A stretch of 64,000 nt of DNA from an uncultured archaeon (GCA_963782915.1 CAWALK010000012.1:96001-160000); one strand, 5' to 3'. Shown: positions 9,647-48,517, counted from the first letter of the stretch. Notes: a model not told the origin generated them from the letters alone. A program made the numbers and translations.

Positions 9647-9684
9647 TATTATAGGGGATAGGGGGTAGCTGGCAGAGCAACAAA
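9647..9684 (+). repeat. G-box intergenic repeat unit A
   Basis: TATTATAGGGGATAGGGGGTAGCTGGCAGAGCAACAAA matches the consensus of the other copies. Confidence 0.75.
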
Positions 9685-9877
9685 TCCCCGACTCAAGTAA
9701 AGGTGGGAAATCGGTCTTCTCTGCTGAGAAGTCGTTTGGTTCCAACATAATTTTTGCTAACCAGTCTGCGGCAAATGCGCACTCAAAACAAGCTACACCC
9801 AACAATCCTCAAAACAAACAGCTACCACTCCAACGAATGCAGCTTCTTAAGCTTTCCTGACCAGCACTTGTGCAGCC

Positions 9878-9914
9878 TATAAATAAGGGAGGGGGTAGGT
9901 CACAGAGAGCAAAC
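9878..9914 (+). repeat. G-box intergenic repeat unit B
   Basis: TATAAATAAGGGAGGGGGTAGGTCACAGAGAGCAAAC. The first 20 nt are identical to 30221-30240. Confidence 0.85.
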
Positions 9915-9927
9915 CTGTCTTTTGGTG

Positions 9928-9973
9928 TGTTCCAGTTGAGGAACACTTTGTTCCATGGGGAGAGCTAAAGGTC
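9928..9973 (+). promoter_or_regulatory. Candidate operator TGTTCC-N6-GGAACA plus extra TGTTCC half-site
   Basis: TGTTCCAGTTGAGGAACACTTTGTTCC..CTAAAGGTC. The same architecture occurs at 51807-51852. Confidence 0.6.
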
Positions 9974-10004
9974 ATCATGGCAAGATGTTATATGTGGTTA
10001 AACG

Positions 10005-10688
10005 GTGAACCAAAAAATTGTAGCCTCTATCCTCTTCGTTATTCTTGTGGCCTTAACTGTTTCAGTGGGAACCCAAAATGTCGCTGCTCAATCAGGCGGA
10101 ATCCCCTATTCAAGTGGGCTGTATCTAATCTCGCCATTAAACACCACCTACACCTCTAACATGTTAACACTCAATGTTTACTTCGATATGGGCATACAAA
10201 CCAAACTAAACTACAGCCTTGACGGCGGCGAACACAGCGGCGACATTCCCTTAACGTACCTTAACAACAGCGAAATAATGTATATCTCAAACTATCAGGG
10301 CATAGTGCCACTCTCACAGCTCTCCGATGGCTCACACGCCCTAACAATAACCGTGGATGCGGAACTCAACGATTTCCATGGAGCAAACCCGCCTGGTGCA
10401 CCATTCAAAGCAACTAACGCTGAAGGCACCAACTTTTCAGCGATTTGGATTCATACAATCTATTTCACGATAGATACATCAAAAGCAACTCAGAATCCAA
10501 CGGTTTCAGCTACTCCAACTCCAACTTTGATAGAGTCGACAAACCAAACCACCACAACACCAACGATGCAGGCGCCTGCAGAGGAACCCCAACAGTTAAC
10601 CTCATTATTACCCATCATAGCGGTTGCCGCAGTCGTTGCCTACATAGCCGTAATCGCTGTACTCATTACAAGAAAAAAATGGAACTAA
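10005..10688 (+). CDS. Secreted/surface protein with Ig-like domain, Thr-rich linker and C-terminal TM
   Basis: Signal peptide; ISPLNTTY..YSLDG..LSDGSHALTI motif; TM followed by RKK. Confidence 0.8.
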   Translation: MNQKIVASILFVILVALTVSVGTQNVAAQSGGIPYSSGLYLISPLNTTYTSNMLTLNVYFDMGIQTKLNYSLDGGEHSGDIPLTYLNNSEIMYISNYQGIVPLSQLSDGSHALTITVDAELNDFHGANPPGAPFKATNAEGTNFSAIWIHTIYFTIDTSKATQNPTVSATPTPTLIESTNQTTTTPTMQAPAEEPQQLTSLLPIIAVAAVVAYIAVIAVLITRKKWN

Positions 10689-10702
10689 TAAAAGTTTGAA
10701 CT

Positions 10703-12160
10703 TTACTTTTTTAGAAGCATACCAAGCATCCGTACCGTTCTACGCGGATTACGAATAGCCCTACCAACCTTATGCCTCGTCAACGTACGATTAATCGCGT
10801 TAGCCCTCATACATAACTCGCTTATTTCTTGGGCGGAGAACTCAGGCGTCTCAACCAACGGCTCCGTAGCAGCCAACGCATAATCACAAAAACCCTCACG
10901 TATGTATCCGCCTGCTTTTGCCTGTTCATAGAATGCGGTGCCATAAAGCGGCATAGCGATGCTAAACACAAAGCTTTCAGCCCCTAAACTTTTGAGTTTG
11001 TATGCGTAACGGATGGTTTCTTCGATGTCAGCTTTAGTTTCGCCGATTAAACCCATGACAAAGAAGCAACCGACTTTAATGCCGACTTTCTTGGCGGCTA
11101 CAATTGCTTCTTCAACCTTTTTCAAATCCAGATTCTTTTTAGCTACATCACTGACAATCCGCTGAACGCCCGATTCTGGGGCAACACGGATTTTTTTGCA
11201 ACCCGACCGCTTCATTTTCCATAACAGTTCCTCATCCAACGTGTCTGCTCTGACTCCGTTAGGAGTAAACCAATCAAAATGCAGGTCCCTCTCAACGATT
11301 AAGTCACAGATTTGCGCCATCCGCTGCTTATCCCATGTCATGTTATCGTCTGCGAAATCGATTTGTTTTATGCCATAGGTTTTGATGACGTGCTCAACTT
11401 CGTCAACCACATTCTTGGGGCTTCTGGGACGCCACTGTTTCCCCCAGACAATGCAATGTGTGCAGAAAACGCAGTTGAAGGGGCAGCCTCTGCTTGTGAT
11501 GACGATGGTGTAGGGTTTGGTTATTTCGCCACGGAGCGGGTTCTGTTTGACTGCTTCTGCATAAACCGTCATTGGTAACAGGTGCCGAGCCGGAAGAGGC
11601 AAGGTATCTAAGTCCTGAATAACTGCACGTTTGCCCGTGAGGATTACTTTGCCGTTTTCCCAGAAACCTAACCCGTCGATACCAAGGAAACTGGTTTTTT
11701 TCTGCTCCAAGACCTCAACTAATTCGGCAATGGTGTTTTCAGGTTCGCCGACAACCACAAAATCCGCCTCAGAATCTTCAAGGCAACTCTCTGGTCTTGA
11801 GGATGGATGCAGCCCAAACAGCACCACAACAATGTCTTTGTTAACCTTTTTTGCTATGGATACCACTTCAAACGCTGTTTTAGACCATCCTGAAAACGGA
11901 ATCTCCACCACAACAACTTCAGGTTTCCAATCCGTGATTCGCTGTGCAATCACGTCTGCGCTTAACCCCACTCGATACTTGGTTGCATCGAGCTCGAGGA
12001 GGTTTTCCCAGCCTTCTGTCGGAGAATCAATTATGGTAACTTGATGCGCTTTTTTCTCTAGAACCGCTGCGACTGATGCCATTGCGATTGGCGGAAAAAC
12101 GTTGGGTTTTCCCCATGCTTTAGGTTGAATTCGTGGTGGATTGATGAGGCAAACACGCAT
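10703..12160 (-). CDS. B12-binding radical SAM protein, paralog 2
   Basis: LINPP, GLHP, GEPE, SRGCPFNCVFC, APESG. Confidence 0.92.
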   Translation of the reverse strand: MRVCLINPPRIQPKAWGKPNVFPPIAMASVAAVLEKKAHQVTIIDSPTEGWENLLELDATKYRVGLSADVIAQRITDWKPEVVVVEIPFSGWSKTAFEVVSIAKKVNKDIVVVLFGLHPSSRPESCLEDSEADFVVVGEPENTIAELVEVLEQKKTSFLGIDGLGFWENGKVILTGKRAVIQDLDTLPLPARHLLPMTVYAEAVKQNPLRGEITKPYTIVITSRGCPFNCVFCTHCIVWGKQWRPRSPKNVVDEVEHVIKTYGIKQIDFADDNMTWDKQRMAQICDLIVERDLHFDWFTPNGVRADTLDEELLWKMKRSGCKKIRVAPESGVQRIVSDVAKKNLDLKKVEEAIVAAKKVGIKVGCFFVMGLIGETKADIEETIRYAYKLKSLGAESFVFSIAMPLYGTAFYEQAKAGGYIREGFCDYALAATEPLVETPEFSAQEISELCMRANAINRTLTRHKVGRAIRNPRRTVRMLGMLLKK

Positions 12161-12211
12161 GCAACGCACTTCTCTGCACAACTACGCTGATTCTTTGATT
12201 AATACTTTGCA

Positions 12212-13270
12212 CTAAATCGGTATAAACCAGAATACCCGTACCAAGACGAGAACGGCAACACAGAGAAGCCCCCACAAAATGATGGTTACGTCGCGTATCC
12301 GCAGCGCCCCTACTATTTTGTCGCCAGTTAACGGTTCCTGAGCATCTCCGAGGATATACTGGCCGGGTTTCTCTAGTTGGATGCGCAATGCGCCGGCGAC
12401 GGCTGCCATGGGCCAACCGTGGTTGCGGCTTGGGGTTTTTTTGTGGTCCCGTCGTGCCATTTTCCAAGCATTCTTTGCGTCCATTCGAAGGATTGCTGCT
12501 GCAACAATCATTAGCAAAGCCGTTAATCTTGTCGGAATAAAATTTACAAAGTTGTCCAGGTTAGCGCTGAACCAACCTGTGTTGATGTGTTCTTTTGTTT
12601 TGAACCCCACCATGCCGTCCAAGGTGTTGATGGCTCGGAAGGCGATTGCTCCTGTGACGCCAAACAGGGCAAAAGACATCATGGGTGAGAGTTTGAAGTC
12701 GATGAGGTTCTCGGACATGGATTCGATTACTGCACTGCCCATTTGTGCTCCGTTAAGGTTTCTTGAGTCTCGCCGTGAGAAATGAGCGTACTTTTTTGCT
12801 TCGGCGACATCTTGGGCGTCGATGGCTTTTGCTACAGATTTAGCCCAGTCTGTTTCAAGTTTGATGCAGATGGTCATTTTGAGCAGTATGATGCCGATGA
12901 CCGCGTAGATGAGTATGTTGAGGGCAAATGGCAGATAGGTGTAGATTGCCCATAACCCAAAGAATGTTGGCAACGCAAAGGCTGCAATCACCGTTAAACC
13001 AAGCAATACCCCGAGGAACTTTTCGATTCTGGAGTTTGGATTCTTGAAATAGGGCTCGATTTTTTTGGTAAAATTCCCCATGACCACGGTTGGATGCAGC
13101 TTAAACACCCATCTGTCAGGATAATTCGGTGAAGGATCGCCTAAAATTAAGTCCAACACTATAGCAAGAACAAGCATCGCTATTGCGACTGCTATGTTTA
13201 GGGTGTTTTGTCCCAGCCAAGAGTACAGGTCGAGCATTGCTTCGATACTTGGATGCTCACTTAATATCAA
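12212..13270 (-). CDS. cbiB: Adenosylcobinamide-phosphate synthase CbiB
   Basis: DLILGDP, HP, ESMSEN..D, RAINTLDGMVG, LDNFVNFIPTRL, SRNHGWPMAAVAGAL. Confidence 0.9.
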   Translation of the reverse strand: MILSEHPSIEAMLDLYSWLGQNTLNIAVAIAMLVLAIVLDLILGDPSPNYPDRWVFKLHPTVVMGNFTKKIEPYFKNPNSRIEKFLGVLLGLTVIAAFALPTFFGLWAIYTYLPFALNILIYAVIGIILLKMTICIKLETDWAKSVAKAIDAQDVAEAKKYAHFSRRDSRNLNGAQMGSAVIESMSENLIDFKLSPMMSFALFGVTGAIAFRAINTLDGMVGFKTKEHINTGWFSANLDNFVNFIPTRLTALLMIVAAAILRMDAKNAWKMARRDHKKTPSRNHGWPMAAVAGALRIQLEKPGQYILGDAQEPLTGDKIVGALRIRDVTIILWGLLCVAVLVLVRVFWFIPI

Positions 13271-13298
13271 TTACGGTTAACACGTTAAAAGAAGCCGC

Positions 13299-13396
13299 TT
13301 GTGTGTCACCGACCTATCCCCCATCTATTTATAGTGACATGGAGGCGTCGTTTGCTGCTTTGCCAACCTATCCCCTCCCTTATATATAGATTCAAG
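13299..13396 (-). repeat. Tandem pair of G-box repeat units (C1, C2)
   Basis: GTTTGCTGCTTTGCCAACCTATCCCCTCCCTTATATATAGATTCAAG is nearly identical to 42960-43005. A second unit, GACCTATCCCCCATCTATTTATAG, precedes it. Confidence 0.85.
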
Positions 13397-13490
13397 GGCA
13401 GGTTCAACCCGCTTAACCCAAACAAAACTTTGCTCTACACACGGATTTTCGGTTTGTTTTTTAAGCTCAAACACCGCTATACCTCAATAG

Positions 13491-13937
13491 GTGCCAAGCT
13501 TGGAGCAACAAGAAGAACTCAACGCTACACTATTCCACACATACCTCTACCTAGTTAAAGCAGGCAAACCCGTCGGACCAAGAGACCTAATGCGTGGTGC
13601 TAACCTGAGCAGCCCAAGCGTTGCATACCGCAACCTACAGCGGCTTATTGACTTGGGCTATGTAGCTAAGGACGACTATGGCAACTACTTCGTCAAAAAG
13701 AAAGTTAACTTACGTGGCTACGTTTGGATTGGTAAAACGCTTGTTCCACGCTTCGCAATCTTCGGCTTAGTTTTCATCGGTGTGCTGTTGGCTGAAATCG
13801 CAGTTTTGATTCCCCATCTACTCGCAAATTCCCCTGTTGAGGAATCATTTTGGCTACTGACCATAGTAACGATTGTTGCAGCGGCAATTTTTCTAGTTGA
13901 AGGCTTAAGATTTAGAAAGAAAACAAAAATTAGCTGA
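13491..13937 (+). CDS. Winged-helix DNA-binding protein with two C-terminal TM helices
   Basis: VGPRDLMRGANLSSPSVAYRNLQRLIDLGYV wHTH, followed by two hydrophobic segments. Confidence 0.8.
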   Translation: MPSLEQQEELNATLFHTYLYLVKAGKPVGPRDLMRGANLSSPSVAYRNLQRLIDLGYVAKDDYGNYFVKKKVNLRGYVWIGKTLVPRFAIFGLVFIGVLLAEIAVLIPHLLANSPVEESFWLLTIVTIVAAAIFLVEGLRFRKKTKIS

Positions 13938-16336: not shown

Positions 16337-17377
16337 CTATGCGTCTAAAGTTTTCTTTACTGGATTGCCCAGCCAATATTTAGGCATAGATTGATGCTCC
16401 AGCAATGAAGGGAACAAGTTTAGCGGCCAAGAAGGTATCATCGGTGATAAGAAAAGGTAAGGTTTCTCCATGCCGTTGATTTTGCTGATTTGCTCCGAAA
16501 CCTCAAACATTTTACTGAAATCTTCCAATGCAACAGCCACATACAAATCGTAATCGCCGAGTAATCTTATGATTACGATTAAGTTGGGTATTCGGAGTAG
16601 TTGCGTATAAATTTCTGTTAGTTTGCTTCGGTTTGAAACTTTAATGTATAAATCCGCCAGGGCTGTATAGCCGAGCTTGTTTAAATCCAAAGTTATCGTA
16701 GAACGTGTCAAGAGGGTTTGTCGTAATTTTCTGTATCTTTGAATAACCGTTTTTGTGGACAAACCGAGTTGTTCGGCTACTTGCCTAAAGGGTATTCGCG
16801 AGTTCTGGGAAACGATTATAGCTATTTTCCTATCAAACTCGTCGAGTTCCATGGGCGATTGATCTATATTGCTTAAGGCTGGTCTGTGGTTTTTGTTTTT
16901 ACTTGGGGGAAGGGGTTTTATGACTAAGTTTGTTGGGAATTCTACGTTTACTGCCTCTGCCCAAATCAGGGTATCTACGTGCTTAATTTCTGTGTTTGAT
17001 TCCAGATCCTCAACGATTTCGGAGAGCTTATTCAAATCGCTCAACGCCACTTTGGCATAAAAATTGTATTTTCCCAAATGTGTAACAACTTGAGCAACCT
17101 GTTGCTTGCTCTCGAGGTATTCAGCTACTGCTTTCTCGTTTTCGCTCTCAGTTATTATACCTAAATCGATGATATGGCGGTAGCCCAAACGGTGAGGATT
17201 AACGATTGTGACTTCGCCGTTTATTACTCCCTCTCGCCATAATTTTTTGTAGCGCATCCTAACTGCGCCAACAGTTATTTTGCATTCTTTGGCTATATCT
17301 GTAAAGCTGGTTCGAGATTCCTCTAAGAGCATACGTATGATGGTGGCGTCGATTTCGTCGATTTTTGGTGTATTCAC
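16337..17377 (-). CDS. Double-domain Lrp/AsnC family regulator, paralog A
   Basis: Two HTH_AsnC+RAM units (IDEIDATIIRMLLEESRTSFTDIAK; LDEFDRKIAIIVSQNSRIPFRQVA). Confidence 0.9.
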   Translation of the reverse strand: MNTPKIDEIDATIIRMLLEESRTSFTDIAKECKITVGAVRMRYKKLWREGVINGEVTIVNPHRLGYRHIIDLGIITESENEKAVAEYLESKQQVAQVVTHLGKYNFYAKVALSDLNKLSEIVEDLESNTEIKHVDTLIWAEAVNVEFPTNLVIKPLPPSKNKNHRPALSNIDQSPMELDEFDRKIAIIVSQNSRIPFRQVAEQLGLSTKTVIQRYRKLRQTLLTRSTITLDLNKLGYTALADLYIKVSNRSKLTEIYTQLLRIPNLIVIIRLLGDYDLYVAVALEDFSKMFEVSEQISKINGMEKPYLFLSPMIPSWPLNLFPSLLEHQSMPKYWLGNPVKKTLDA

Positions 17378-17627: not shown

Positions 17628-18650
17628 TTATGTTTCTCCAAATACAGGTTGCTCTGCAGCATCTGTAAGGAGCATTTCTGAAAACAGGTTCAAGGGCCAA
17701 GCAGGAAACATCGGAGTTAAAATCGTCTCAGGTTTCTCTATCCCGTCTATTCTATTAATTTGAGTTGCTACCTCAAACATTTTAGTGAAATCTTCCAGTG
17801 CAATTGCAACGTATAGATCATAGACGCTAAGCAACCTCAAAATCACGATGATGTTGGGGATTTCAAGCAGTTGATTGTAGATTTCAGTCATTTTTCCCCG
17901 GTTTGAAACTTTTATGTAAAGATTCGCTAAAGCAGAGTAACCTAATCTGTTTAGATCTAATGTTATGCATGAATATGTTAGTAGTGGGCCTCTTAGTTTC
18001 TTGTATCTTTGAATAACTGTTTTTGTGGAGACACCGACTTGTTGAGCTATTTGTCTGAATGGTGTTCTGGAATTCTTTGAGACTATATGCGCAATTTTTC
18101 TGTCTATTTCGTCGATACGTATTGGCGATTGGTCTATATTGGCTAGGGCGGGGCGTTGGTTTTTAGTAAAGCCGTCATCCATTAGCGGTTTAATAGTTAA
18201 GTTCGTTGGGAACTCCACATTGACTCCTTCGGCCCAAATTATTGCGTCAACATGCTTAATTTTCTGATTTGATTCCAAGTCCTCAATAATCTGTGCTAAC
18301 CTGTTTAGGTCACGGAGAGCAACTCTCGTGTAGAACGTATAACTCCCTATATGAGTAAGCAAACAGGATAGGTATGGTTTAGTTTTAAGGTAATCTGCGG
18401 CTTCTTTTTCATTTTCACTATCTGCCGTAATTCCTAAGTCTATGATATGTCGGTAGCCTAGACAATGCGGATTAACGATGGTGACTTCGCCGTTTATGAT
18501 GCCTTGTCGCCATAGGCGTTTATAGCGCATCCTGACTGCACCGACGGTAATATGACATTGCTTAGAAATTTCCGTGAAGCTTGTTCTGGATTCAGCTAAA
18601 AGCATTTTCAAAATTTTTGCGTCAGTGCTGTCTATCTTAATGGTATCCAC
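17628..18650 (-). CDS. Double-domain Lrp/AsnC family regulator, paralog B
   Basis: Colinear with and strongly similar to 16337..17377 (shared ITVGAVRMRYK, VNVEFPTNL, WPLNLF). Confidence 0.9.
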   Translation of the reverse strand: MDTIKIDSTDAKILKMLLAESRTSFTEISKQCHITVGAVRMRYKRLWRQGIINGEVTIVNPHCLGYRHIIDLGITADSENEKEAADYLKTKPYLSCLLTHIGSYTFYTRVALRDLNRLAQIIEDLESNQKIKHVDAIIWAEGVNVEFPTNLTIKPLMDDGFTKNQRPALANIDQSPIRIDEIDRKIAHIVSKNSRTPFRQIAQQVGVSTKTVIQRYKKLRGPLLTYSCITLDLNRLGYSALANLYIKVSNRGKMTEIYNQLLEIPNIIVILRLLSVYDLYVAIALEDFTKMFEVATQINRIDGIEKPETILTPMFPAWPLNLFSEMLLTDAAEQPVFGET

Positions 18651-21433: not shown

Positions 21434-21471
21434 TTCTTACTAAAATTTAAGGCTAAAACTGTTTTGTGCCT

Positions 21472-21503
21472 TTAAATAAGGGAGGGGAGGTAGTTGCTGA
21501 GCT
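21472..21503 (+). repeat. G-box repeat unit D (degenerate), between convergent genes
   Basis: TTAAATAAGGGAGGGGAGGTAGTTGCTGAGC. Confidence 0.7.
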
Positions 21504-21518: not shown

Positions 21519-22640
21519 TTATTGAAGCTGCTTAGCCATCACTTTCTTAATTGTTTCGACAAGTGTTTTGTTGTCTTTGGCTGAGCGGACGGTTATGCGG
21601 ATGTAGCTGTCATCCATGCCCATAAAGGTGCAGCAGTCGCGGACTAAGATGCGTTCTTTGGCGAGTAGTTCTTTGAGCATGGTTGAGGTTAATTTGCGGT
21701 TTAAGATTTTTACGAGCAGGAAGTTGGTTGTTGATGGATAAACTTGGAAGCCTTCGATTGTGGCTAAGTCTTTGGCGAGTTCTGCTCGGTTTTTGGTGAT
21801 TGTTTCTTTTGTGCTAGCTATGAATTCGGTGTCGCTAAACGCTGCTAATGTGGTGGTGTTTACTAAGCCGTTGATGCTCCATGGTTGACGCACCGTCTCC
21901 AGCTTATCAATCAAGTTAGTCGCAGCAATAGCGTAGCCAAAGCGTAAGCCTGCTAAACCGTAGAATTTGGTAACTGACCGGATAACAAAGAGGTTCTCGT
22001 AGTCTTTGACCATGCCGGCAACGGTGTTTTTGTCACCTTCCTCTGCAAATTCGATGTAGTTTTCGTCTATGCTAAAGATGATGTCGCGTTTTTGGCAGAA
22101 CTCCACGAGGTCCATGACTTCTTCTTTGGTGTATAGTCTGCCTGAGGGGCTGTGTGGGTTGCAGATGCACATGATTTTTGTGTCATCGGTTACTGCAGCC
22201 TTGATTTTCTCGTGATCCATCGAGAAATCTGGTGGTAGCTGGACGAAAGTGACTTCTCCGCCGACTCGCAGTGACGCTTTCTCGTATTCGGAGAAGGATG
22301 GCACTGGAATTACTGCTTTGAAAACTTGAGGCAATGCCTCAGTTATCATGTAGATGAGTTCGATTGAGCCGTTGCCGAGCAGAATGTTTTCTGCTTTCAC
22401 GCCGTGACCAACGTATTTGGCTATGGCTGATTTGAATTCAACTGGGTTTGGGTCAGGATAGAATTTGATTAATCGGGCATTTTGTTTGACGGATTCCACG
22501 GCTTTCGGTGGAGGTCCCATGAAGTTGATGGGTCCGCTGAATTCAAGCACTTCTTCAAGTGGAATGCTATGTTTTCTGCTGAAACCCCAAATATCGCCAC
22601 CATGACTAACGAATCTGCGTTTTTTACATGTGCTTGACAT
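21519..22640 (-). CDS. cobD: L-threonine-O-3-phosphate decarboxylase (PLP class I/II, CobD)
   Basis: N-terminal HGG, YPDP, GNGS, CNP, RSVTKFYGLAGLRFG. Cobamide gene context. HisC cannot be fully excluded. Confidence 0.75.
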   Translation of the reverse strand: MSSTCKKRRFVSHGGDIWGFSRKHSIPLEEVLEFSGPINFMGPPPKAVESVKQNARLIKFYPDPNPVEFKSAIAKYVGHGVKAENILLGNGSIELIYMITEALPQVFKAVIPVPSFSEYEKASLRVGGEVTFVQLPPDFSMDHEKIKAAVTDDTKIMCICNPHSPSGRLYTKEEVMDLVEFCQKRDIIFSIDENYIEFAEEGDKNTVAGMVKDYENLFVIRSVTKFYGLAGLRFGYAIAATNLIDKLETVRQPWSINGLVNTTTLAAFSDTEFIASTKETITKNRAELAKDLATIEGFQVYPSTTNFLLVKILNRKLTSTMLKELLAKERILVRDCCTFMGMDDSYIRITVRSAKDNKTLVETIKKVMAKQLQ

Positions 22641-29332: not shown

Positions 29333-29764
29333 TTAGCCTATTCCAAGCTGCCTCATCATACCTACAGCATCGTAGAATAATCGTTCTTCTTGGATTTCGC
29401 CGCCTTTCCAATGCGCTACCGTGCAGAACTCTAACTTAGCAGTTTTATGTGTCGGTTGGATGGTTTGACCATTGGGCATCTTCATAGGTCCAATCATTGT
29501 TGCGGTCCAATCCGCCACCGAACAGGTGTAGTCGCCTTGCCCAAACAAGATTTTGTAGGGGTTGTTGACGAGTTTGTTGTCGAAGGTTTTGAAGAATTCG
29601 ACTGATTCTTTAAAATGGGCTTCGCGGCCTCTGGTGGGTTCCGGTTGTCCGGGCCAGTAGACGGCGACGTTTTCTGCATGGCGTTTCTTGAAGGTATCCC
29701 ATTCTTGGTCGTTCCATGAGTCGTCAAGAGTTTTCATTAATTCGAGGTTTGGATTTGTGCTCAT
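29333..29764 (-). CDS. SnoaL-like / NTF2 ester-cyclase family protein
   Basis: DDSWN..W, PTRGREAH, PTHK..EFCTVAHWKGGEIQEERLFYD. Confidence 0.85.
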   Translation of the reverse strand: MSTNPNLELMKTLDDSWNDQEWDTFKKRHAENVAVYWPGQPEPTRGREAHFKESVEFFKTFDNKLVNNPYKILFGQGDYTCSVADWTATMIGPMKMPNGQTIQPTHKTAKLEFCTVAHWKGGEIQEERLFYDAVGMMRQLGIG

Positions 29765-29888
29765 AAAAATCACTGGCAAAGCTGAGACTGGGGAAGCTAT
29801 AAAAAAGTATGCTGGTATCCAGTTGCAGATACGATTTTACGATGGCAGTCTTGAATATTGGATTGGCGTTTTGTTGGTTGTCTTGTTT

Positions 29889-29938
29889 TTCTACAGTATG
29901 TTGTTGCTGAAAACCGCCTATACACAACAACAACCAGC
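29889..29938. repeat. Hairpin element copy 1 (GTTGTTG..CAACAAC)
   Basis: TTCTACAGTATGTTGTTGCTGAAAACCGCCTATACACAACAACAACCAGC. Similar to 48297-48345 and, inverted, 62119-62165. Confidence 0.8.
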
Positions 29939-30220
29939 AGACGTTGCAGGCGTTTGCGTTTTAGCTTCAGCCTCTGGGTTGGGTTGCGGGTTGTTGAGGC
30001 GTTTTCTAGAAGCAGGGCAGGCGGAAATTTTTAATCTACTGATAGAGCGGGCTGTAAGCGGTTGAGAGGTAGCGTGTCCCAAGGTAGCCTGAAGTTGAAA
30101 ACCAAACCGCTGCAAACGTGCAATAAGAATAAGCTACACTTAACAAGCGTTGTTTATTCACGGCAAATACTCAATGAATGCAAACAGCCCCAACAACGCT
30201 AAGACCACAAGCGTCTATCC

Positions 30221-30258
30221 TATAAATAAGGGAGGGGGTACCTCGGCAGAGCAGCAAA
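30221..30258 (+). repeat. G-box repeat unit E
   Basis: TATAAATAAGGGAGGGGGTACCTCGGCAGAGCAGCAAA. Confidence 0.85.
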
Positions 30259-30322
30259 GAGCCACTTCAACATATGCACAGACTACCGTAAACCCATAAG
30301 CGCTTCTGGTTAGCAAATGCCT

Positions 30323-30616
30323 CTATTCAGTGTTCTCTACAGGTTGAGCTTCAGCCGCTGTATTCAAAACCTGCTCAATCAGGTATTCACTGAGGTCAGT
30401 GACGCATTGACCGAAGTTTTTGGCGTGTTTAGTCAAGCGGCAATTAAAAACATGCAGTTCTATGGCTTTTCCCATGGCTGATGCATCTGGGATAACTAAA
30501 ATTTCGGTTCCGCATCGGCAATGGATAACTGGTAGAGTCTGGGTTTTGGTGTCATGGCTCGGTGGGTTATGCGTTTTGTGGTTTGGTTCTTTAAAATTTT
30601 GTTCTACTTCAACCAA
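30323..30616 (-). CDS. Small putative metal-binding protein (CxC..H..C), paralog A
   Basis: LPVIHCRCGTEILVIPDASAMGKAIELHVFNC; paralog immediately upstream. Confidence 0.75.
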   Translation of the reverse strand: MVEVEQNFKEPNHKTHNPPSHDTKTQTLPVIHCRCGTEILVIPDASAMGKAIELHVFNCRLTKHAKNFGQCVTDLSEYLIEQVLNTAAEAQPVENTE

Positions 30617-30725
30617 GCTCCTACTAGACTAGTCGCTTAATGCTTGATTGGATATACGGTTTTGTTGTAGGTGCATGGCAGCAACAATGCTATATTAATG
30701 GGTGCAAGAAATTGATGGTTTCTTT

Positions 30726-30968
30726 CTAAAGTTCAGTTTCGGCACTGAAATCTAGAACTTGCCTAATTAAAAACTCACTCAAACTCGCGATGCATTTTGT
30801 AACGTTTTTTGAGTGTTTAGTTATGCGGCAGCCTTCAACATGGGCATCTATAGCTTTACCCATAGCTTTAGCGTCAGGAAGAACAAGAATTTCAGCTCCA
30901 CACCTGCAATGGATAACTGGCAAACTCGAGGACTCAACAACAAATTGATACGGGTCTTGAGTTACCAT
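30726..30968 (-). CDS. Small putative metal-binding protein (CxC..H..C), paralog B
   Basis: LPVIHCRCGAEILVLPDAKAMGKAIDAHVEGC. The protein sequence is conserved with paralog A while synonymous codons differ. Confidence 0.75.
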   Translation of the reverse strand: MVTQDPYQFVVESSSLPVIHCRCGAEILVLPDAKAMGKAIDAHVEGCRITKHSKNVTKCIASLSEFLIRQVLDFSAETEL

Positions 30969-31133
30969 TTTAGAATGACTTTTAATTCAATCACGCTCCT
31001 TAACAAGGACGTTGCTTTCTTGAATATTAATATAGGGTATGACTGCTCAGTATGATAAGTCTGTACAACAGTACCACTATTTAGAAAGGTGTAAAGGTCC
31101 TCTCAAACGGCAAGTATGCAAGCCGCTAAATGT

Positions 31134-35937: not shown

Positions 35938-36027
35938 GCTCTTTTCGTTTTTCTCTTCTATTTCCAACTTTTTACCTTTTCAGGAGTAGATAGTTTGGTT
36001 CTTAAGTGTACTACCTACCTCAAGTGT

Positions 36028-36104
36028 ATACCCCCTCCCCTCTTCTTCAAAGAGTATAGCAGAAGAGGTTTGTTGCTCTCCAGAGACTCCCCTCCCCCTA
36101 TTTG
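36028..36104 (-). repeat. Tandem G-box units F1 (partial) and F2
   Basis: ATACCCCCTCCCC ... GTTTGTTGCTCTCCAGAGACTCCCCTCCCCCTATTTG, between convergent genes. Confidence 0.75.
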
Positions 36105-36114
36105 AAGGGTAAAA

Positions 36115-36615
36115 TTAGTTTATGACTTTAATGTTAAGCACGCAGTAATCCTGCGTAAACACGTAAGCAGAGCCGTCGCGTTGCCAGAGTTCAAAGACGA
36201 CAGTGTAGGTTCCGACAGTGTTCTCTGTTATGGTAACTGACTTCTCGTATGTATCGCCGTTTTTCAGGTTGAAGTCATAGGTGTTGACTGGAGCAACTGC
36301 AACTCCTTCATTTGGGGTTACGATAAAGCTTGTTGTAATCTTGGTTCTTACTTGATAGCCTTGGGTTCCGTTCATATGGCTTGTTACATCAACGTAGACA
36401 CTAAAGGTGCTGTTCTGGTTGGCAACCAAGACTTCTGGAAAATTGTTAGCTTGCTTTTGATTATCAAGCAAATAAATAGTATTATATTCTTCCGCTGGAG
36501 GTCTCAACCAAACATAGTAACCTGCAAAAACGCATCCCACAACGACTAAGGCAATAAAAACGGCAACTGCAACGCCTTTCTCATCGTCTAAGCCGATTCT
36601 TCTTCCAATGCCCAT
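36115..36615 (-). CDS. Membrane-anchored DUF1616-like protein
   Basis: N-terminal TM, EEYNTIYLL...ANNFP, beta-rich C-terminus. This family is typical of archaeal glycosylation loci. Confidence 0.65.
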   Translation of the reverse strand: MGIGRRIGLDDEKGVAVAVFIALVVVGCVFAGYYVWLRPPAEEYNTIYLLDNQKQANNFPEVLVANQNSTFSVYVDVTSHMNGTQGYQVRTKITTSFIVTPNEGVAVAPVNTYDFNLKNGDTYEKSVTITENTVGTYTVVFELWQRDGSAYVFTQDYCVLNIKVIN

Positions 36616-39064: not shown

Positions 39065-39216
39065 GGGGTTCAGCCTTAGCGTTATTTGGAGTTGTTTGTT
39101 TTAAGTGTTGTGAAGAGGTTCACCGTAATACTTAGCATTCAACATAGCCAACGCTGCCTTTTTGAAGCTATATTTTAAACTACAATTTTAAGCTAAACCG
39201 ATTGGTGAACAGGGTG

Positions 39217-39381
39217 CTAACTTGAAGCAGCTAGCTCTTCTCTCGTTGGATATTTAACGCGAGCCACCTTGAAAATGAGTGTACAATTCTCGCATCGATA
39301 GTATTTTAGCGAGAAGTATGGGTTTTCATTTTGCTGATCTAGCTTGGCATTCTCTTTTCGACATCTAGGACATTTGACCAT
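39217..39381 (-). CDS. Small zinc-ribbon protein
   Basis: MVKCPRC...YRCENC (two CxxC motifs), 54 aa. Confidence 0.6.
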   Translation of the reverse strand: MVKCPRCRKENAKLDQQNENPYFSLKYYRCENCTLIFKVARVKYPTREELAASS

Positions 39382-39733
39382 TTTGCTAAGCCTTTTCGAG
39401 AACTTTGACGTAATTGCTACGATAAAAGGATTTTGTGCATTATTGGAGGAATTTCCCTGTTGAGCCATTATTATTTTGCGGTTCATTTTTTGGACCCTAA
39501 GGAACTCGCCGTTTAGTTGCGTTAGCTGTGTGCTATTCCTAGGAATCGAAATGCTTATATGAAAACGTTGGATAAACCAACCAGCAGTCCGTGTGGTAAT
39601 TTGCTAAACATAAAGAAAAACTCGATTGTATCAGCCAAAGATTTAGCTTTAGTTGAGTGTTCTGGCTGTTTGGCAAGTAAAACCTTATTTTCCTGTTTAA
39701 CTGTTTCTAACCAACCAGGAGGAAAAAAACTAG

Positions 39734-42292: not shown

Positions 42293-42907
42293 CTGCGTTG
42301 GTTATGGCTGGTGGCAAAGGCACCCGCATGAAGCTCGCTGAAGAGAAGCCGCTTATCAAAGTCTGTGGCAAACCCGTGATTGAGTATGTGCTTGCTGCAT
42401 TGAAGAGACGCTAAAAAAATTGATCAACATAATCGTGGCTACATCCACTACTACGCCAAAAACTACGGCGTTGATGAAGCACTCGGCGTCCAAGTTATCC
42501 AAACTCCAGGTAAAGACTATGTTTCCGACATGGGCTACACGGTCCAAACGCTCAAGTTCGGCGTTTTCTTAGCAATCGCGGCTGATTTGCCATTGGTGAA
42601 GCCTGAAATGATTGATGCAGTGGTGGAACGTTATGAGCAATGCGGCAAACCTGCGCTAACGGTTGCGGTGCCGCTTGAAGTTAAAGCCAAGTTGGGCATG
42701 AGCATCGAATACAGCTTCAAAACCGACGACAACTGTGACGTGGTTCCAGTCGGCATAAACGTCATAGACGGCAGCAAACGTTACGGCGACGAATGGCTCG
42801 ACCAAGACATCTACATCCTAAACCACGAAGAACTCGCCGTTAACATCAACACAGTGCAGGAACTACAGCTGGCAGAACGCATGTTGGCTGAGAAACTTAA
42901 GAAATAG
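42286..42907 (+). CDS. cobY: CobY guanylyltransferase, copy 2; several indels in 42400-42490
   Basis: ATG at 42286 gives MVTALVMAGGKGTRMK..EKP. The downstream frame has ADLP, GINV and NINT. Confidence 0.8.
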
Positions 42908-42909
42908 TC

Positions 42910-43005
42910 TTTTGCTCTCCAGAGCCTATCACACTCTATTTACAGCAACATAGAGGAGCGTTTGCTGCTCTGCGGACCTACCCCTCCCTTATATATAGAT
43001 TCAAG
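42910..43005 (-). repeat. Tandem G-box units G1/G2
   Basis: TTTGCTCTCCAGAGCCTATC..CTATTTACAG followed by GTTTGCTGCTCTGCGGACCTACCCCTCCCTTATATATAGATTCAAG. Confidence 0.85.
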
Positions 43006-46402: not shown

Positions 46403-46561
46403 AGTTTTGTGCCTGCTACCTTAAGCGTGAAGGTTTGCTCATTTAAGCGTAACTACCCAATTTTGGATATTTTTCTGTTCTAAACCGTTTGACGTAATTA
46501 AGAATTTCCATTGAACAGTCTATACAGGTCTAAAACCTCTCAACACCTCTAAACAGGGGTG

Positions 46562-47557
46562 CTACTCGGTTTTAGCTATTTTCTGCTGCAACAACTTGAG
46601 GCACTGTTTGAGGGCATCCTGAATTTCGCCTTTACCGCTCACACCAGAAGCCATCGCGTGACCACCGCCAACTCCACCCAAATATTCGCCTAGTGGCGCC
46701 GCTATGTCGGTTCCTAAGTGGATTTTTGCGCCTTCGTTGAATTGGCGTACGCTTCGTAGGCTGATTTCAATTTTACCGTTTTTCTTGCCTGCAACCGCGG
46801 ACATATGTGCGCCTAAATCTACGAGTGCTTTTGCTGCGGGAGCTTGGAAAGCACTGACATGTGATAGGGCGATTATCCAGCCATCGACTTTAACGATTTT
46901 AGCACGTTTACATGCTTTGAGTTTGGCAACCCGTTCAGAGGGGTCAATTGGCAATGCATACTGTGCCAGCGTCTGCTGAGCATCAATCCCTTCAACCACC
47001 AACTTCGCAACAATCTCAAAAGTTGGCGAATTAGCCAACGCAAAATGGCGTGTATCAAAAGCTATACCAACAAACAATGCTTTTGCCTCGTTGAGGGTTG
47101 GTCTTACCTCTGCTTCGGCATAGAGGCGATAGATTAATTCACAGTTCGCTGCTGCTTTATCGTCGACAAAGCAGAGTTTGCAGATTTGCATGGTTTCTGC
47201 GTTTGGTGCGTGGTGGTCGATGATGATTTTTGGGGCAGGCGACTTTTTGATGGCATCGGCAACTTCGTCAAGCTGCTCAATAGTGTTCATGTCGAGTAGT
47301 ATGATGGCTTCTGCTGAGTCAATGTTAGGCTTCAAATTAACAGTTATAGGCAAATTATCAAGAAGCGTCTTAGACGGTTTATTGATGCCTTGTGGGCAAC
47401 CAATCTCCACTACCATGTTGGGTAGAAACCGCTTTAGCAATCCCTGCAAACCATAAGCTGAACAAATCGCATCCGCATCTGCACTACGGTGACAAAGCAG
47501 TAGAACAAAAGAAGCCTGCTGCTTCTCCAAAAGCGCAATTAATTCTTTGAAACTCAT
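46562..47557 (-). CDS. DHH/DHHA1 phosphoesterase
   Basis: H..ADADA, IIDHH, DT..F, SLRS, GGGH. Confidence 0.9.
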   Translation of the reverse strand: MSFKELIALLEKQQASFVLLLCHRSADADAICSAYGLQGLLKRFLPNMVVEIGCPQGINKPSKTLLDNLPITVNLKPNIDSAEAIILLDMNTIEQLDEVADAIKKSPAPKIIIDHHAPNAETMQICKLCFVDDKAAANCELIYRLYAEAEVRPTLNEAKALFVGIAFDTRHFALANSPTFEIVAKLVVEGIDAQQTLAQYALPIDPSERVAKLKACKRAKIVKVDGWIIALSHVSAFQAPAAKALVDLGAHMSAVAGKKNGKIEISLRSVRQFNEGAKIHLGTDIAAPLGEYLGGVGGGHAMASGVSGKGEIQDALKQCLKLLQQKIAKTE

Positions 47558-47844
47558 TTTAGTTTGCTCAAAAAGTTTTCAGTAGCCCGATGCGCTTCAG
47601 AAACCGCTGCTTTAACCAAAGCCTCCACATCCACCTCTTTAGTTGTCTTAAGCAAAAGAAGATTGATTTCGACTGTGACGCTGACGGGTTTGGTTCCTTC
47701 AACTTCAACAGAGATTTCTAAACGGTCAATATCTTTGCTGGAGACTTTGGATAGGATATGTTTGCGGGCTGCATCCTCGGTGGTTTGGCATAAAAGTTCG
47801 ATTTGCTCGGTGGATAGCTCTGGAAAGCCGAGCTCACCCATCAA
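47554..47844 (-). CDS. DUF3194-family archaeal protein
   Basis: Small acidic protein (GFPELS.EQIE) in the usual prefoldin beta-DUF3194-DHH gene order. Confidence 0.7.
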   Translation of the reverse strand: MMGELGFPELSTEQIELLCQTTEDAARKHILSKVSSKDIDRLEISVEVEGTKPVSVTVEINLLLLKTTKEVDVEALVKAAVSEAHRATENFLSKLK

Positions 47845-47860
47845 GCATCAAGTCCCCTGT

Positions 47861-48235
47861 TTAAGAGAGGGGTTGACCCGAGACTGGGCTTAGGTCTTCT
47901 TGTAGTTTAGTCTGTGATTCTTTGACTTGGCTGCGTATGCGTTCTTCTTGGCGTGCGATGACTGTGCTGCGTGTTTCAAGCAGGGATTTGCGTTCGGTTA
48001 AGCTTTCGATAACCTTTGCTTTCTCTGCTTTTACGAGTAGTGAACCGGCGGCGCTGTAGATGACTGCGTCGTCTGCGGTTTTTGCCAATTCAGCGAGGGT
48101 TTGGTCTACCTCAGATTTTTCCATGTCAACTTGTTGTTTCTGTGCTAGGATGGATTGTAGTGTCTGTTGTAACTGTTGGAGACGGAGAAGCCTTTCTTGA
48201 ACGTTAGGCGGTAACTTGGATAATTCGTCACTCAT
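47861..48235 (-). CDS. pfdB: Prefoldin beta subunit
   Basis: LPPNVQ..LQQLQQ coiled coil, IYSAAGSLLVK hairpin, second coiled coil. Confidence 0.92.
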   Translation of the reverse strand: MSDELSKLPPNVQERLLRLQQLQQTLQSILAQKQQVDMEKSEVDQTLAELAKTADDAVIYSAAGSLLVKAEKAKVIESLTERKSLLETRSTVIARQEERIRSQVKESQTKLQEDLSPVSGQPLS

Positions 48236-48296
48236 GTTTTATTCCTTCCGTACCAGAAATGGGATGTGCTCTTAATTAAGGATTTCCAACTCTTTT

Positions 48297-48345
48297 TTCT
48301 ATAGTAGTTGTTGGCGAAAAGTTGCTATACACAACAACAACCAGC
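48297..48345. repeat. Hairpin element copy 2
   Basis: TTCTATAGTAGTTGTTGGCGAAAAGTTGCTATACACAACAACAACCAGC. A GT-rich linker follows, then a degenerate G-box (AAATATGGAAGGGGGTGG) at ~48422. Confidence 0.8.
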
Positions 48346-48517
48346 TGGTTGTGCTGTGGTTTGCTTTTTTGGTTTTGGGTTTGGTTTGGGTTGCTGGTTG
48401 GTTGTGGCGTATTTTGCAGGCAAATATGGAAGGGGGTGGTGGCTTTTGAACATGTTTTTCTTTGCGAAAGAAAGCCTTATATGGATAAATATGTAACGCT
48501 TACAATGTAAGCTGTTA

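What the first reader, a model, noticed from the sequence alone, without database searches (positions are those of the whole stretch)
9647..48442. Unannotated dispersed ~40-bp G-box repeat family (about 11 units at 7 loci)
Seen: consensus TATA(A/T)ATAAGGGAGGGGGTAGGTnnGCAGAGCAGCAAAC at ~9647(+), 9878(+), 13299 and 13350(-), 21472(+), 30221(+), 36028 and 36068(-), 42910 and 42960(-), and 48422(+, degenerate). All copies are intergenic. Three loci hold head-to-tail doublets about 55 bp apart; the 13.3-kb and 42.9-kb doublets align over ~90 bp. Three loci lie between convergent genes, so the TATA-like part cannot be the promoter of a flanking CDS there. Inference: a REP/MITE-like element, a binding site for a chromosome-organising protein, or a family of TATA-driven small or antisense RNAs. 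The G-string loosely recalls ORB G-strings, but the ORB core is absent.
Basis: partly seen in the sequence, partly recalled or inferred. Interest (0 to 1): 0.7.

Follow-up and report, generated by a model that had tools for sequence, protein, structure and literature searches.

The report
Dispersed promoter-like G-box cassette family
A soil archaeon carries about 220 copies of a short unit between its genes, a TATA box followed by a run of G's and a fixed start-site motif, which most likely acts as a shared promoter for many small non-coding or antisense RNAs; no expression data exist yet.

Summary
The repeat is real and much larger than reported. A profile trained only on copies outside the window recovers 7 of the 11 claimed units. 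Three second units of doublets are degenerate variants. The 48422 copy is not supported. The genome holds 219 copies, against 0 in a shuffled genome, and all are intergenic.

The anatomy is that of an archaeal core promoter: TATA box, invariant GGGAGGGGG box, then GAGC/GAGG at a fixed +18/+19 (153 of 217), where a start site is expected. It is not an mRNA promoter class. The next gene is co-oriented in 108 cases and opposed in 109. Ordinary, tRNA, SRP and RNase P promoters lack the box.

About a third of the units head a ~190-nt C/A-rich non-coding body that ends in a hairpin. Wobble pairs in that hairpin favour the G-box strand (29 vs 6).

No Y1 transposase gene, terminal inverted repeats or target duplication was found. 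Copies are gained, lost or replaced between close relatives. Within the genus the family is patchy: 38 of 120 genomes.

Best reading: a lineage-amplified promoter cassette for non-coding transcription, confidence about 0.5. Transcription is unshown. The scan has noted similar promoter-linked families in other Bathyarchaeia DNA.

The parts
9642..9688 (+). G-box unit of the subtype TATAGGGGATAGGGGG plus GGCAGAGCAACAAA. GAGC lies at 9675-9678, the predicted start region.
   Evidence: nhmmer E=4.2e-4; sequence. Close relative G093 has a variant unit in the same spacer.
9716..9741 (+). Small hairpin (CTTCTC-TGCT-GAGAAG) with a T-rich tail, about 40-65 nt after the predicted start of the 9647 unit. 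It may mark the end of a short RNA.
   Evidence: Terminator-like scan. Only 2 such sites were found against 0.6 expected, so this is weak.
9867..9917 (+). G-box unit with a canonical box and the tail CACAGAGAGCAAAC. Predicted start is near 9905. A hairpin follows at 9927-9946, then the ORF 10005-10688.
   Evidence: PWM 37.2 bits; nhmmer E=2.7e-6; hairpin. The unit and the ORF are absent from G093.
13350..13396 (-). First (A-type) unit of the doublet upstream of cobD.
   Evidence: nhmmer E=1.6e-10; PWM 34.7 bits.
13297..13334 (-). Second, degenerate unit of the doublet (CTATAAATAGATGGGGGATAGGTCGGTGAC). It ends about 30 nt before the cobD ORF start at 13270.
   Evidence: Sequence only; not returned by the profile. 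In G093 the whole doublet is replaced by about 50 nt of unrelated sequence.
21462..21503 (+). Single unit between convergent genes. Its predicted start near 21500 lies about 20 nt from the stop of the opposing aminotransferase gene (21519-22640, minus strand).
   Evidence: nhmmer E=6.3e-6; PWM 26.2 bits. G093 has the orthologous unit with a variant TATA and box.
30085..30212 (+). Upstream module attached to the 30221 unit. It is one of about 18 related copies and is rich in TGCA dyads. No conserved RNA fold was found.
   Evidence: Clustering; alignment and alifold near 0 on both strands.
30213..30259 (+). A-type G-box unit; GAGC near 30249.
   Evidence: nhmmer E=1.6e-11; PWM 37.3 bits. It lies in a ~1.7-kb segment (about 29397-31106) that mostly lacks a counterpart in G093.
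36065..36115 (-). First unit of the doublet between convergent genes (box GGGGGAGGGG, tail GGAGAGCAACAAACC).
   Evidence: nhmmer E=1.4e-7. G093 has a diverged sequence of similar length with a degenerate box.
36011..36058 (-). Second unit, B-type tail (GGGGAGGGGGTATACACTTGAGGTAGGTAG) with a poor TATA.
   Evidence: Core match with 2 mismatches; sequence; not returned by the profile.
42957..43004 (-). First (A-type) unit of the doublet between convergent genes.
   Evidence: nhmmer E=2.4e-11; PWM 33.7 bits.
42909..42944 (-). Second, degenerate C-type unit (TGTAAATAGAGTGTGATAGG...GGAGAGCAAAAG). It abuts the stop codon of the opposing ORF 42530-42907.
   Evidence: Sequence. A 75-nt block spanning both boxes and tails is missing from G093 with clean junctions. 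The more distant G076 has an A+C doublet at the same site.
29885..30015 (-). Copy of the ~130-nt C/A-rich 'family-1' body with a terminal hairpin. It is a different module of the same mosaic; here it is not headed by a forward G-box.
   Evidence: Repeat D9; body census; upstream context.
48293..48423 (-). Second family-1 body. The claimed 'degenerate' 48422(+) unit is the complement of its 5' flank.
   Evidence: DNA match at C12:144293-144422, minus strand. The profile gives E=8.5 for 48422.

Best explanation
The G-box unit is a self-contained archaeal core-promoter cassette. It has a TATA box (C-TATAWATA), then directly an almost invariant G-rich box (GGGAGGGGG, usually followed by TAGGT), then an initiator-like GAGC/GAGG 18-19 nt after the box begins. 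That places the motif about 28-29 nt after the first T of the TATA box, where archaeal RNA polymerase is expected to start.

The cassette has been copied to about 220 intergenic places. From these it would drive short non-coding transcripts. Some have a conserved ~190-nt C/A-rich body with a 3' hairpin. Many have unique sequence, including RNAs antisense to the 3' ends of convergent genes. A few may serve as leaders of downstream genes (9878 before ORF 10005; 13299 before cobD).

The box lies between the TATA box and the start site. This is where TFB and RNA polymerase, or a repressor, contact DNA. I infer that it is read by a protein and marks a separately controlled promoter class.

Shown: the anatomy, the copy number, the placement, and the turnover between species. 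Inferred: transcription itself, its direction, and the role of the box.
For: (1) Copy number. 219 copies against 0 in a shuffled genome, all intergenic. PWM hits number 149-249 against 0-16 in shuffles.

(2) Geometry. GAGC/GAGG sits at +18/+19 from the box start in 153 of 217 units. The same TATA / G-rich box / GGCAGAGCAACA layout precedes 11 of 15 occurrences of that tail in four other species. It also appears in 28 of 30 loci from other public MAGs.

(3) The TATA part matches the genome's own TATA boxes, which peak 50-60 nt before start codons.

(4) Not an mRNA class. The next gene is co-oriented in 108 cases and opposed in 109. Only 3 of 108 same-strand gene starts lie within 95 nt, against 34 of 109 convergent gene ends (Fisher p=9e-9). 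Spacer classes are convergent 65, tandem 59+44, divergent 49.

(5) 32 of 76 family-1 bodies have a forward unit within the 90 nt upstream that were scanned. A copy without the box keeps a TATA at the same distance (window 48.4k).

(6) Strand. In the body's hairpin, internal G.T pairs (valid only on the G-box strand) outnumber A.C pairs 29 to 6 in 69 distinct hairpins. A looser count gives 113 to 40. Alifold gives -10.3 forward against -4.5 reverse, and z-scores are -1.29 against -0.60. T5+ runs are scarce downstream on this strand: 78 against 197 A5+ runs at +100 to +250.

(7) The box carries 1.5-2.0 bits per position and the TATA 0.6-1.3. The box stays the same across subtypes whose flanks differ.
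Against: No RNA evidence exists: no RNA run was listed.

The units lack the BRE-like GAAAAC that precedes the TATA of this genome's tRNA genes, so orientation is not fixed by a known element.

Discrete forward terminators are not enriched. Terminator-like sites at +40 to +150 occur in 31 of 217 units on the forward strand and 57 of 217 on the reverse strand. The first forward T5 run lies at a median of 280 nt.

Raw folding energy favours the opposite, G/U-rich strand: -34.0 against -27.2, with the sense strand more stable in only 8 of 76.

In the scan, 4 of 76 family-1 bodies returned a reverse-oriented match (1 of them also a forward one). Reading the 41 'neither' contexts by eye, I count about ten reversed, degenerate 'CTGATA'-type units just upstream of a body. 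Modules also recur on both sides of the box. Both points fit a DNA-level mosaic as well as a promoter.

A G-rich stretch in the region that must melt is unusual for a promoter (from general knowledge of archaeal promoters, not tested here).

Copies are related, so the counts are not independent events.
Confidence: 0.5

Rival explanations
1. The units are non-transcribed DNA elements. They would be a mosaic intergenic repeat family (BIME-like) whose G-box is the site of a chromatin, nucleoid or boundary protein. The TATA-like part would be merely part of the repeat, or a TBP landing pad that acts as a roadblock at gene ends.
For: The box is better conserved than the TATA and is identical across subtypes. 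Modules recur on both sides and in both orientations. Units often abut stop codons on either side: downstream distances cluster at 25-47 nt, and upstream distances go down to 2-22 nt. 65 of 217 units sit between convergent genes. No forward terminators are enriched. The upstream module of the 30221 type has TGCA dyads and no RNA fold.
Against: The fixed TATA-to-GAGC spacing and the conserved start-region motif are unexplained by a simple binding site. The wobble asymmetry in the attached body argues for an RNA on the same strand. The box is asymmetric, unlike typical dimeric sites (sequence).
Confidence: 0.2
2. The cassette fires the other way. The C-rich complement (CCCCCTCCC) would act as an unusual G/C-rich BRE directly upstream of the quasi-symmetric TATA box. 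Transcription would then run into what is here called the upstream side, giving G/U-rich RNAs.
For: The box touches the TATA exactly where a BRE would lie on the other strand (sequence). In the body-upstream contexts printed, by my eye about ten family-1 bodies have a reversed, degenerate unit whose TATCAG element ends about 22 nt before the body's conserved 5' edge (the profile itself scored 4 of 76 as reverse-oriented). Repeated modules extend about 140 nt upstream in 25-80% of units depending on type. One upstream module type ends, on the reverse strand, in several short T runs. Reverse-strand terminator-like sites and folding energies are higher.
Against: The conserved GAGC at fixed spacing lies on the forward side. 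32 of 76 bodies lie downstream of forward units. Wobble asymmetry, alifold and z-scores favour the forward strand. The reverse-strand excess of GU-tolerant stems and T-rich tails is expected from its G/T-rich make-up alone. This genome's own BRE-like element is A-rich.
Confidence: 0.1
3. The units are ends or relics of a transposable element (MITE, IS200/IS605-type or REP/RAYT-type) that inserts into AT-rich targets.
For: High copy number, even dispersal, presence/absence between close relatives, and a patchy distribution in the genus. At the 42.9k site the extra DNA lies next to TATA-like sequences on both sides.
Against: No Y1 transposase gene was found in a genome 93.5% complete. There is only one weak TnpB-like match, 21.6 bits for the matched stretch (the tool's own column marks it over the family cut-off, 27.5 bits, once neighbouring stretches in the frame are added). 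The clean 75-nt indel has no terminal inverted repeats and no target-site duplication. Units are not palindromic. At 13.3k the unit replaces other sequence rather than inserting into it. G076 has a differently built doublet at the same 42.9k site. This points to turnover by recombination or to a hotspot rather than cut-and-paste.
Confidence: 0.08
4. The units are replication-origin (ORB-like) or other replication-linked elements.
Against: There are 219 copies at about 6-7 per 100 kb on all larger contigs, with no clustering. There is no dyad in the unit (sequence).
Confidence: 0.02

Closest known systems
Archaeal BRE/TATA core promoters of small non-coding RNA genes
   Same: A TATA box of the genome's own type and a conserved motif at the expected start distance. 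The units stand alone in intergenic DNA, and non-coding sequence follows.
   Different: There is no A-rich BRE like that before this genome's tRNA genes. Instead an almost invariant 9-nt G box fills the TATA-to-start interval. That box is absent from ordinary, tRNA, SRP, RNase P and rRNA promoters here. About 220 copies share one cassette.
Putative mobile promoters / promoter reuse in prokaryotes (Nijveen, Matus-Garcia, van Passel 2012, PMC3575422; I read the abstract and opening paragraph)
   Same: Highly similar promoter-type sequences occur at many unrelated intergenic sites without an obvious transposase, with gain and loss between relatives.
   Different: Those promoters were defined upstream of genes. 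These units show no preference for co-oriented genes (108 vs 109) and avoid the 95 nt before gene starts. The copy number in one genome is far higher than a typical reused promoter. No rewiring of a gene has been demonstrated.
Bacterial mosaic intergenic repeats that can carry promoters (BIME/REP, ERIC, Correia elements; named in PMC3575422, details recalled)
   Same: Short modules are combined in variable order, with doublets. They sit at gene ends and between convergent genes, and the repertoire is species-specific.
   Different: No palindromic hairpin core, no RAYT gene, no terminal inverted repeats or TA duplication at the empty site. The organism is an archaeon, and the core looks like an archaeal promoter.
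Eukaryotic downstream TFIIB recognition element (BREd), a G/T-rich element just after the TATA box (recalled; no paper read here)
   Same: Position directly downstream of the TATA box, and a G/T-rich make-up.
   Different: This is a functional analogy only. No TFB contact has been tested. The sequence is longer and far more rigid, and archaeal BREd-type elements are not something I could document with these tools.
Multi-copy, promoter-linked non-coding families noted earlier by this scan in Bathyarchaeia (e1-6523851 and e1-6417165 in this genome; e1-4162162 and e1-4242331 in others)
   Same: Clade-restricted non-coding units sit behind a conserved promoter-like block.
   Different: Sequence look-ups with a window unit and with a family-1 unit returned no earlier record. 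Identity with those families is therefore unverified. None of those summaries mentions a G box between the TATA and the start.

Membership tests
Archaeal core promoter | TATA box of the organism's own consensus | tested here: met
   Unit consensus is C-TATAAATA/TATATATA. The same octamers peak 50-60 nt before start codons of 1023 ordinary genes.
Archaeal core promoter | Purine-rich BRE directly upstream of the TATA | tested here: not met
   tRNA genes here show GAAAAC-like sequence before the TATA. Units have GAATC, GAGCC, TATTC or CAGTC, with less than 0.8 bit of information.
Archaeal core promoter | Start-site motif at fixed distance from the TATA | tested here: met
   GAGC/GAGG at +18/+19 from the box start in 153 of 217 units. 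The layout is kept in other species.
Archaeal core promoter | Transcripts that start there | not testable with these tools
   No RNA run was listed for this DNA.
REP/REPIN with RAYT | Palindromic repeat plus a Y1 (RAYT) transposase gene in the genome | tested here: not met
   PF01797 gives 0 matches in the 93.5%-complete genome. The unit is not palindromic (sequence).
MITE | Terminal inverted repeats and target-site duplication at insertion sites | tested here: not met
   The one clean empty site (G093 vs window 42.9k) shows neither. Only one site could be read cleanly.
IS200/IS605-TnpB associated element | Adjacent tnpA/tnpB genes | tested here: not met
   No Y1 gene. One PF07282 match in the whole genome, E=8.0e-4, 21.6 bits for the matched stretch; the tool marks it over the family cut-off (27.5 bits with its neighbours in the frame). 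I did not check whether it lies near a unit.
Known RNA families (Rfam 15) | Match at gathering score | tested here: not met
   0 matches in the window. In 8 loci with full units there are only two sub-threshold matches, E=0.36 and 0.75.
tRNA-linked promoter | tRNA gene downstream | tested here: not met
   1 of 41 tRNA genes has a unit within 400 nt upstream, at 274 nt.
ORB / origin elements | A few clustered copies at an origin | tested here: not met
   219 dispersed copies at about 6-7 per 100 kb. The ORB dyad core was not compared with a reference.
Putative mobile promoters | Near-identical promoter sequences upstream of unrelated genes | tested here: inconclusive
   Near-identical cassettes occur at unrelated loci, but with no bias towards co-oriented genes (108 vs 109).

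The most novel reading that the evidence does not exclude
The G box is a new, lineage-specific core-promoter element lying between the TATA box and the start site (a BREd-like position). It would be read by one of this archaeon's five TFB paralogues or by a dedicated regulator. It would then define a separate promoter class that switches a regulon of about 220 non-coding and antisense RNAs on or off together, and it would co-evolve with its reader, which would explain why the box differs between sister species.
Probability: 0.15. Interest if true: 0.85.

Novelty: new variant of a known kind. Interest (0 to 1): 0.6.

Why it matters
If these units are active promoters, this uncultured soil archaeon devotes roughly one site per 15 kb to non-coding or antisense transcription driven by a single cassette. 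That is a scale of coordinated RNA-based regulation not documented for archaea in the papers I could search.

The rigid G box in the TATA-to-start interval would be a handle for testing promoter-class selection by TFB paralogues. This is a long-standing question in archaeal transcription.

The cassette also marks fast-evolving intergenic DNA: gain, loss and replacement between species that share 83-90% identity in the flanking genes. That makes it useful for studying how promoters spread without transposases.

For annotation, these units explain long 'empty' spacers. They also predict antisense RNAs at the 3' ends of many genes.

Tried and rejected
RNA evidence: no RNA holder was listed for window:29800-39700, so read laying could not be used.

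tRNA promoter idea: rejected (1 of 41).

Rfam: nothing at gathering score.

RAYT/IS200: no gene found. TnpB: one weak match.

TFB copy number as a correlate of the box: G000 has 10 cyclin-repeat matches (5 genes). The box-rich G076, G058 and G050 have 8, 6 and 8. Box-poor genomes range from 2 to 14. No relation is visible. This is not a test of which paralogue might read the box.

RNA structure in the upstream module of the 30221 type: alifold is near 0 on both strands.

A fixed-register wobble count (G.T 92 vs A.C 4) was discarded. The regular expression mis-set the register at two stem positions. The strand-neutral counts are used instead.

Forward terminators: a hairpin-plus-T-tail scan does not support them.

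The 'extension to 700 nt' of some families came from doublets matching themselves and from a few duplicated regions, not from a long element.

Crude gene calling: my home-made caller covers only 69-70% of the genome. 'Intergenic' and distance figures therefore carry that error, although stop-codon positions are exact.

GC-skew strand bias could not be tested on 25 contigs.

Earlier-findings look-ups by sequence returned nothing.

Literature: no paper was found for 'Bathyarchaeia + non-coding RNA + promoter' (0 papers). 'Bathyarchaeota + TATA box' gave 4 unrelated papers. 'archaea / intergenic repeat / promoter / small RNA / multicopy' gave nothing relevant among the 10 listed. These searches cover only the held library.


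Full report
ORGANISM AND SETTING

The window is C12:96001-160000 of a 3.28-Mb, 25-contig assembly, 93.5% complete. It has an archaeal 16S gene. Earlier notes of this scan call it a soil Bathyarchaeia. The public MAGs that share the motif carry Bathyarchaeia/Bathyarchaeota titles.

The window encodes cobamide-related and radical-SAM genes. It has no tRNA gene and no Rfam match at gathering score.

Yes, in the main.
- The 13-nt core with up to 2 mismatches occurs 5 times against 0.57 expected.
- A PWM trained on 113 copies outside the window finds 5 window units at 26-37 bits. It gives 149-249 genome hits, depending on threshold, against 0-16 in three locally shuffled genomes.
- An nhmmer profile from the same 113 copies finds 7 of the 11 claimed units at E<1e-3. 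It scores 48422(+) at E=8.5.
- The 48422 site is the flank of a different repeat on the other strand, 48293-48423.
- The second units of the three doublets (13299, 36028, 42910) are not returned by the profile. They resemble degenerate subtypes seen elsewhere in the genome.
- The three convergent-gene settings are correct.
- The 13.3k and 42.9k doublets align over about 100 nt.

THE FAMILY IS GENOME-WIDE

The profile finds 219 copies at E<0.01: 111 on the + strand and 108 on the - strand. A shuffled genome gives 0. Density is about 6-7 per 100 kb on all larger contigs. All 219 midpoints fall outside my crude gene set, which leaves 31% of the genome as non-coding. The exact 13-mer ATARGGGAGGGGG occurs 108 times, against 2 for the reversed control.

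ANATOMY

The consensus is C-TATAAATA-A-GGGAGGGGG-TAGGT-(N~5)-GAGC... The box carries 1.5-2.0 bits per position and the TATA 0.6-1.3. GAGC or GAGG starts 18 or 19 nt after the box begins in 153 of 217 units. That is 28-29 nt after the first T of the TATA. This is where an archaeal start site is expected, given a TATA centred near -26/-27 (general knowledge).

Three tail types follow:
- A: GGCAGAGCAACAAA, 127 units.
- B: GCTCTGAGGTAGGTAGGTCC, 46 units.
- C: ..GAGAGCAAAAGACCTC, 20 units.
- 24 units fall in none of these.

Doublets are usually an A unit followed 44-55 nt later by a B-, C- or GGGGATAGGGGG-type unit.

IT IS NOT THE ORDINARY PROMOTER OF THIS GENOME

In 1023 upstream regions of ordinary genes, TATA-like octamers peak 50-60 nt before the start codon. 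They are followed by A/T-rich sequence with G at 13-23%. tRNA, SRP RNA, RNase P RNA and rRNA genes have ordinary promoters. In tRNAs these are often GAAAAC before the TATA, and none has the box. Only 1 of 41 tRNA genes has a unit within 400 nt.

PLACEMENT IGNORES GENES

- The next gene downstream is co-oriented in 108 units and opposed in 109.
- Spacer classes are convergent 65, tandem 59+44, divergent 49.
- Only 3 of 108 co-oriented gene starts lie within 95 nt of the box, against 34 of 109 convergent gene ends (Fisher p=9e-9).
- Distances to convergent stop codons cluster at 25-47 nt.

So many units, if active, would fire straight into the 3' end of an opposing gene. In the window this applies to 21472, 36028 and 42910.

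WHAT FOLLOWS THE UNITS

In a BLAST clustering of the +35 to +400 sequence, 137 of 217 units share a match of at least 50 nt with another unit; 65 are singletons. Repeated sequence extends to about +200 nt downstream and also to about -140 nt upstream. In 68 of 217 units the upstream module matches a downstream module of another unit on the same strand. This indicates tandem arrays and a mosaic of modules.

The best-defined module is 'family 1', with 76 copies. It runs CTGCTTGC, CCACAACCA, about 80 nt of C/A-rich sequence, a hairpin GGTTGTTGTTG-loop-CAACAAC, then an A run.
- 32 of 76 have a forward G-box unit within 90 nt upstream.
- 4 returned a reverse-oriented profile match, one of which also had a forward match.
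- By eye, about ten have a reversed degenerate 'CTGATA' unit.
- 41 have neither.

The body alone is multi-copy in other species of the genus (G005, G007, G008 and others), with other sequences upstream. No Rfam family matches.

WHICH STRAND?

Evidence for the G-box strand:
- The fixed GAGC spacing.
- In the family-1 hairpin, internal G.T pairs outnumber A.C pairs 29 to 6 in 69 distinct hairpins. A looser count gives 113 to 40.
- Alifold on 18 B-type units gives -10.3 forward against -4.5 reverse. Shuffle z-scores are -1.29 against -0.60.
- T5+ runs are rare and A5+ runs common at +100 to +250: 78 against 197.

Evidence against it:
- Raw MFE is lower on the G/U-rich opposite strand.
- Terminator-like sites are more frequent on the opposite strand: 57 against 31 of 217.
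- The reversed arrangement of some units.

I weigh this as favouring the forward direction, but it is not settled.

MOBILITY AND EVOLUTION

No Y1 transposase gene was found, and only one weak TnpB-like match.

Comparison with the nearest relative found, handle G093 (83-90% identity in flanking genes, 56% complete):
- The 42.9k doublet is a clean 75-nt presence/absence. There is no target duplication or inverted ends, and G093 keeps the TATA and its upstream flank.
- The more distant G076 has a differently built A+C doublet at the same site. G050 has yet other modules there.
- The 13.3k doublet is replaced in G093 by about 50 nt of unrelated sequence.
- The 36.0k doublet corresponds to a diverged stretch with a degenerate box.
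- The 21472 unit is orthologous but has a different TATA and a one-base-shorter box.
- The 9647-type unit is present as a variant. The 9878 unit and the ORF behind it are absent.
- The 30221 unit lies in a ~1.7-kb segment that mostly lacks a G093 counterpart.

Distribution in the genus:
- The strict 22-mer with up to 3 mismatches is found in 15 of 120 genomes. It is multi-copy only in G000 (62), G058 (16), G076 (13) and G050 (3).
- A sequence-only profile (R1) hits 38 of 120 genomes. They are 45-49 in G000, G076, G104, G065, G058 and G070; 29-30 in G091 and G050; 10-14 in G079, G135 and G093; 82 genomes have none.
- The A-type tail occurs 45 times in G000 and 0-5 times in five other species. 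There, 11 of 15 copies are preceded by a TATA and a G-rich box of different sequence.

The layout is therefore old in part of the genus. The box sequence is species-typical, and copy number has expanded in some lineages.

Outside the genus sample, the exact 18-mer occurs in 30 loci of public genomes. 28 of these have the full TATA/box/GAGC layout: 24 are titled Bathyarchaeia or Bathyarchaeota and four are titled Methanocella sp. The other two are bacterial hits without that context.

MECHANISM PROPOSED

A promoter cassette whose box is recognised by a protein. Its position between the TATA and the start is where TFB, RNA polymerase or repressors bind (general knowledge). The genome has five TFB genes, but TFB copy number does not track the box across 81 genomes. 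The 16S 3' end is ...GGATCACCTCCT. The box contains a GGAGG core, but under the forward model it is not transcribed.

RIVALS

A non-transcribed protein-binding mosaic repeat (0.2), a reversed promoter with the C-rich strand as BRE (0.1), a transposon relic (0.08) and an origin element (0.02). The evidence for and against each is set out in the Rival explanations section.

COMPARISON WITH THE KNOWN

The unit works like an archaeal sRNA promoter. It spreads like the 'putative mobile promoters' of Nijveen et al. (PMC3575422; abstract and opening paragraph read) and like mosaic intergenic repeats. It fails the defining features of REP/RAYT, MITE and ORB elements and matches no Rfam family.

My literature searches found no description of it, within the limits of the held library. 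The scan has earlier notes of promoter-linked non-coding families in Bathyarchaeia, two of them in this genome. Sequence look-ups did not link them to this family.

VERDICT

A real, large, clade-restricted family. It is most likely a promoter cassette for non-coding and antisense transcription with an unusual G-rich core element.

Noticed in passing
window 88-2320 and 3813-6299: Genes built from ~120-nt (40-aa) tandem repeats, with copies also inverted between the two gene sets (repeat families D1-D8, I4, I5, I7). They are probably repeat-domain proteins; I did not analyse them.
   Followed up: no
window 9484-10702: This spacer is about 1.2 kb here and about 158 nt in the close relative G093. 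The extra DNA holds the 9878 unit and an ORF of 227 aa (10005-10688) with no Pfam match.
   Followed up: partly
window 29397-31106: About 1.7 kb that mostly lacks a G093 counterpart. It holds a SnoaL-like gene (29333-29779), a reversed family-1 body, a degenerate 'CTACTGATA'-type box near 30030-30075, the TGCA-rich module, the 30221 unit and two small weak ORFs.
   Followed up: partly
window 39134-39547: About 413 nt present here but absent from G093 between otherwise collinear genes. It contains no G-box unit. Contents not examined.
   Followed up: no
window 16337-17377 and 17628-18650: Two adjacent minus-strand genes are paralogues, about 69-71% identical at the DNA level (repeats D3, D5).
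   Followed up: no
genome-wide; window 29885-30015(-) and 48293-48423(-): The ~130-nt C/A-rich 'family-1' body with its GTTGTTGTTG/CAACAAC hairpin has 76 copies here and is multi-copy in several congeners. Only 32 of 76 sit behind a G-box unit, so it is a module in its own right.
   Followed up: partly
L053 (G005) and L057 (G090): An A-type unit (CTCTTATAGGGGATCGGGCTCTGT + GGCAGAGCAACATAACCC...) is printed identically, apart from one base, over about 100 nt in these two species. It lies about 2 kb from a TFB gene in both. It may be an old founder copy.
   Followed up: no
L076 and L083 (another Bathyarchaeia MAG): Two units there point at sequence that I read, by eye only, as the complement of a tRNA 3' end. 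This echoes the convergent placement seen here.
   Followed up: no
G000 C22:43495-44043, C11:28953-29504, C18:238940-239491, C20:138984-139535, C20:143887-144438: Five TFB paralogues, two of them 5 kb apart on C20. Across 81 genus genomes (G000 included) the PF00382 repeat-match count ranges from 2 to 14.
   Followed up: partly
window 52956(-): A weak PWM hit (12.7 bits, GGGGAGGGGG preceded by CTATAGATGAA) at window 52956(-). I take it as chance.
   Followed up: no
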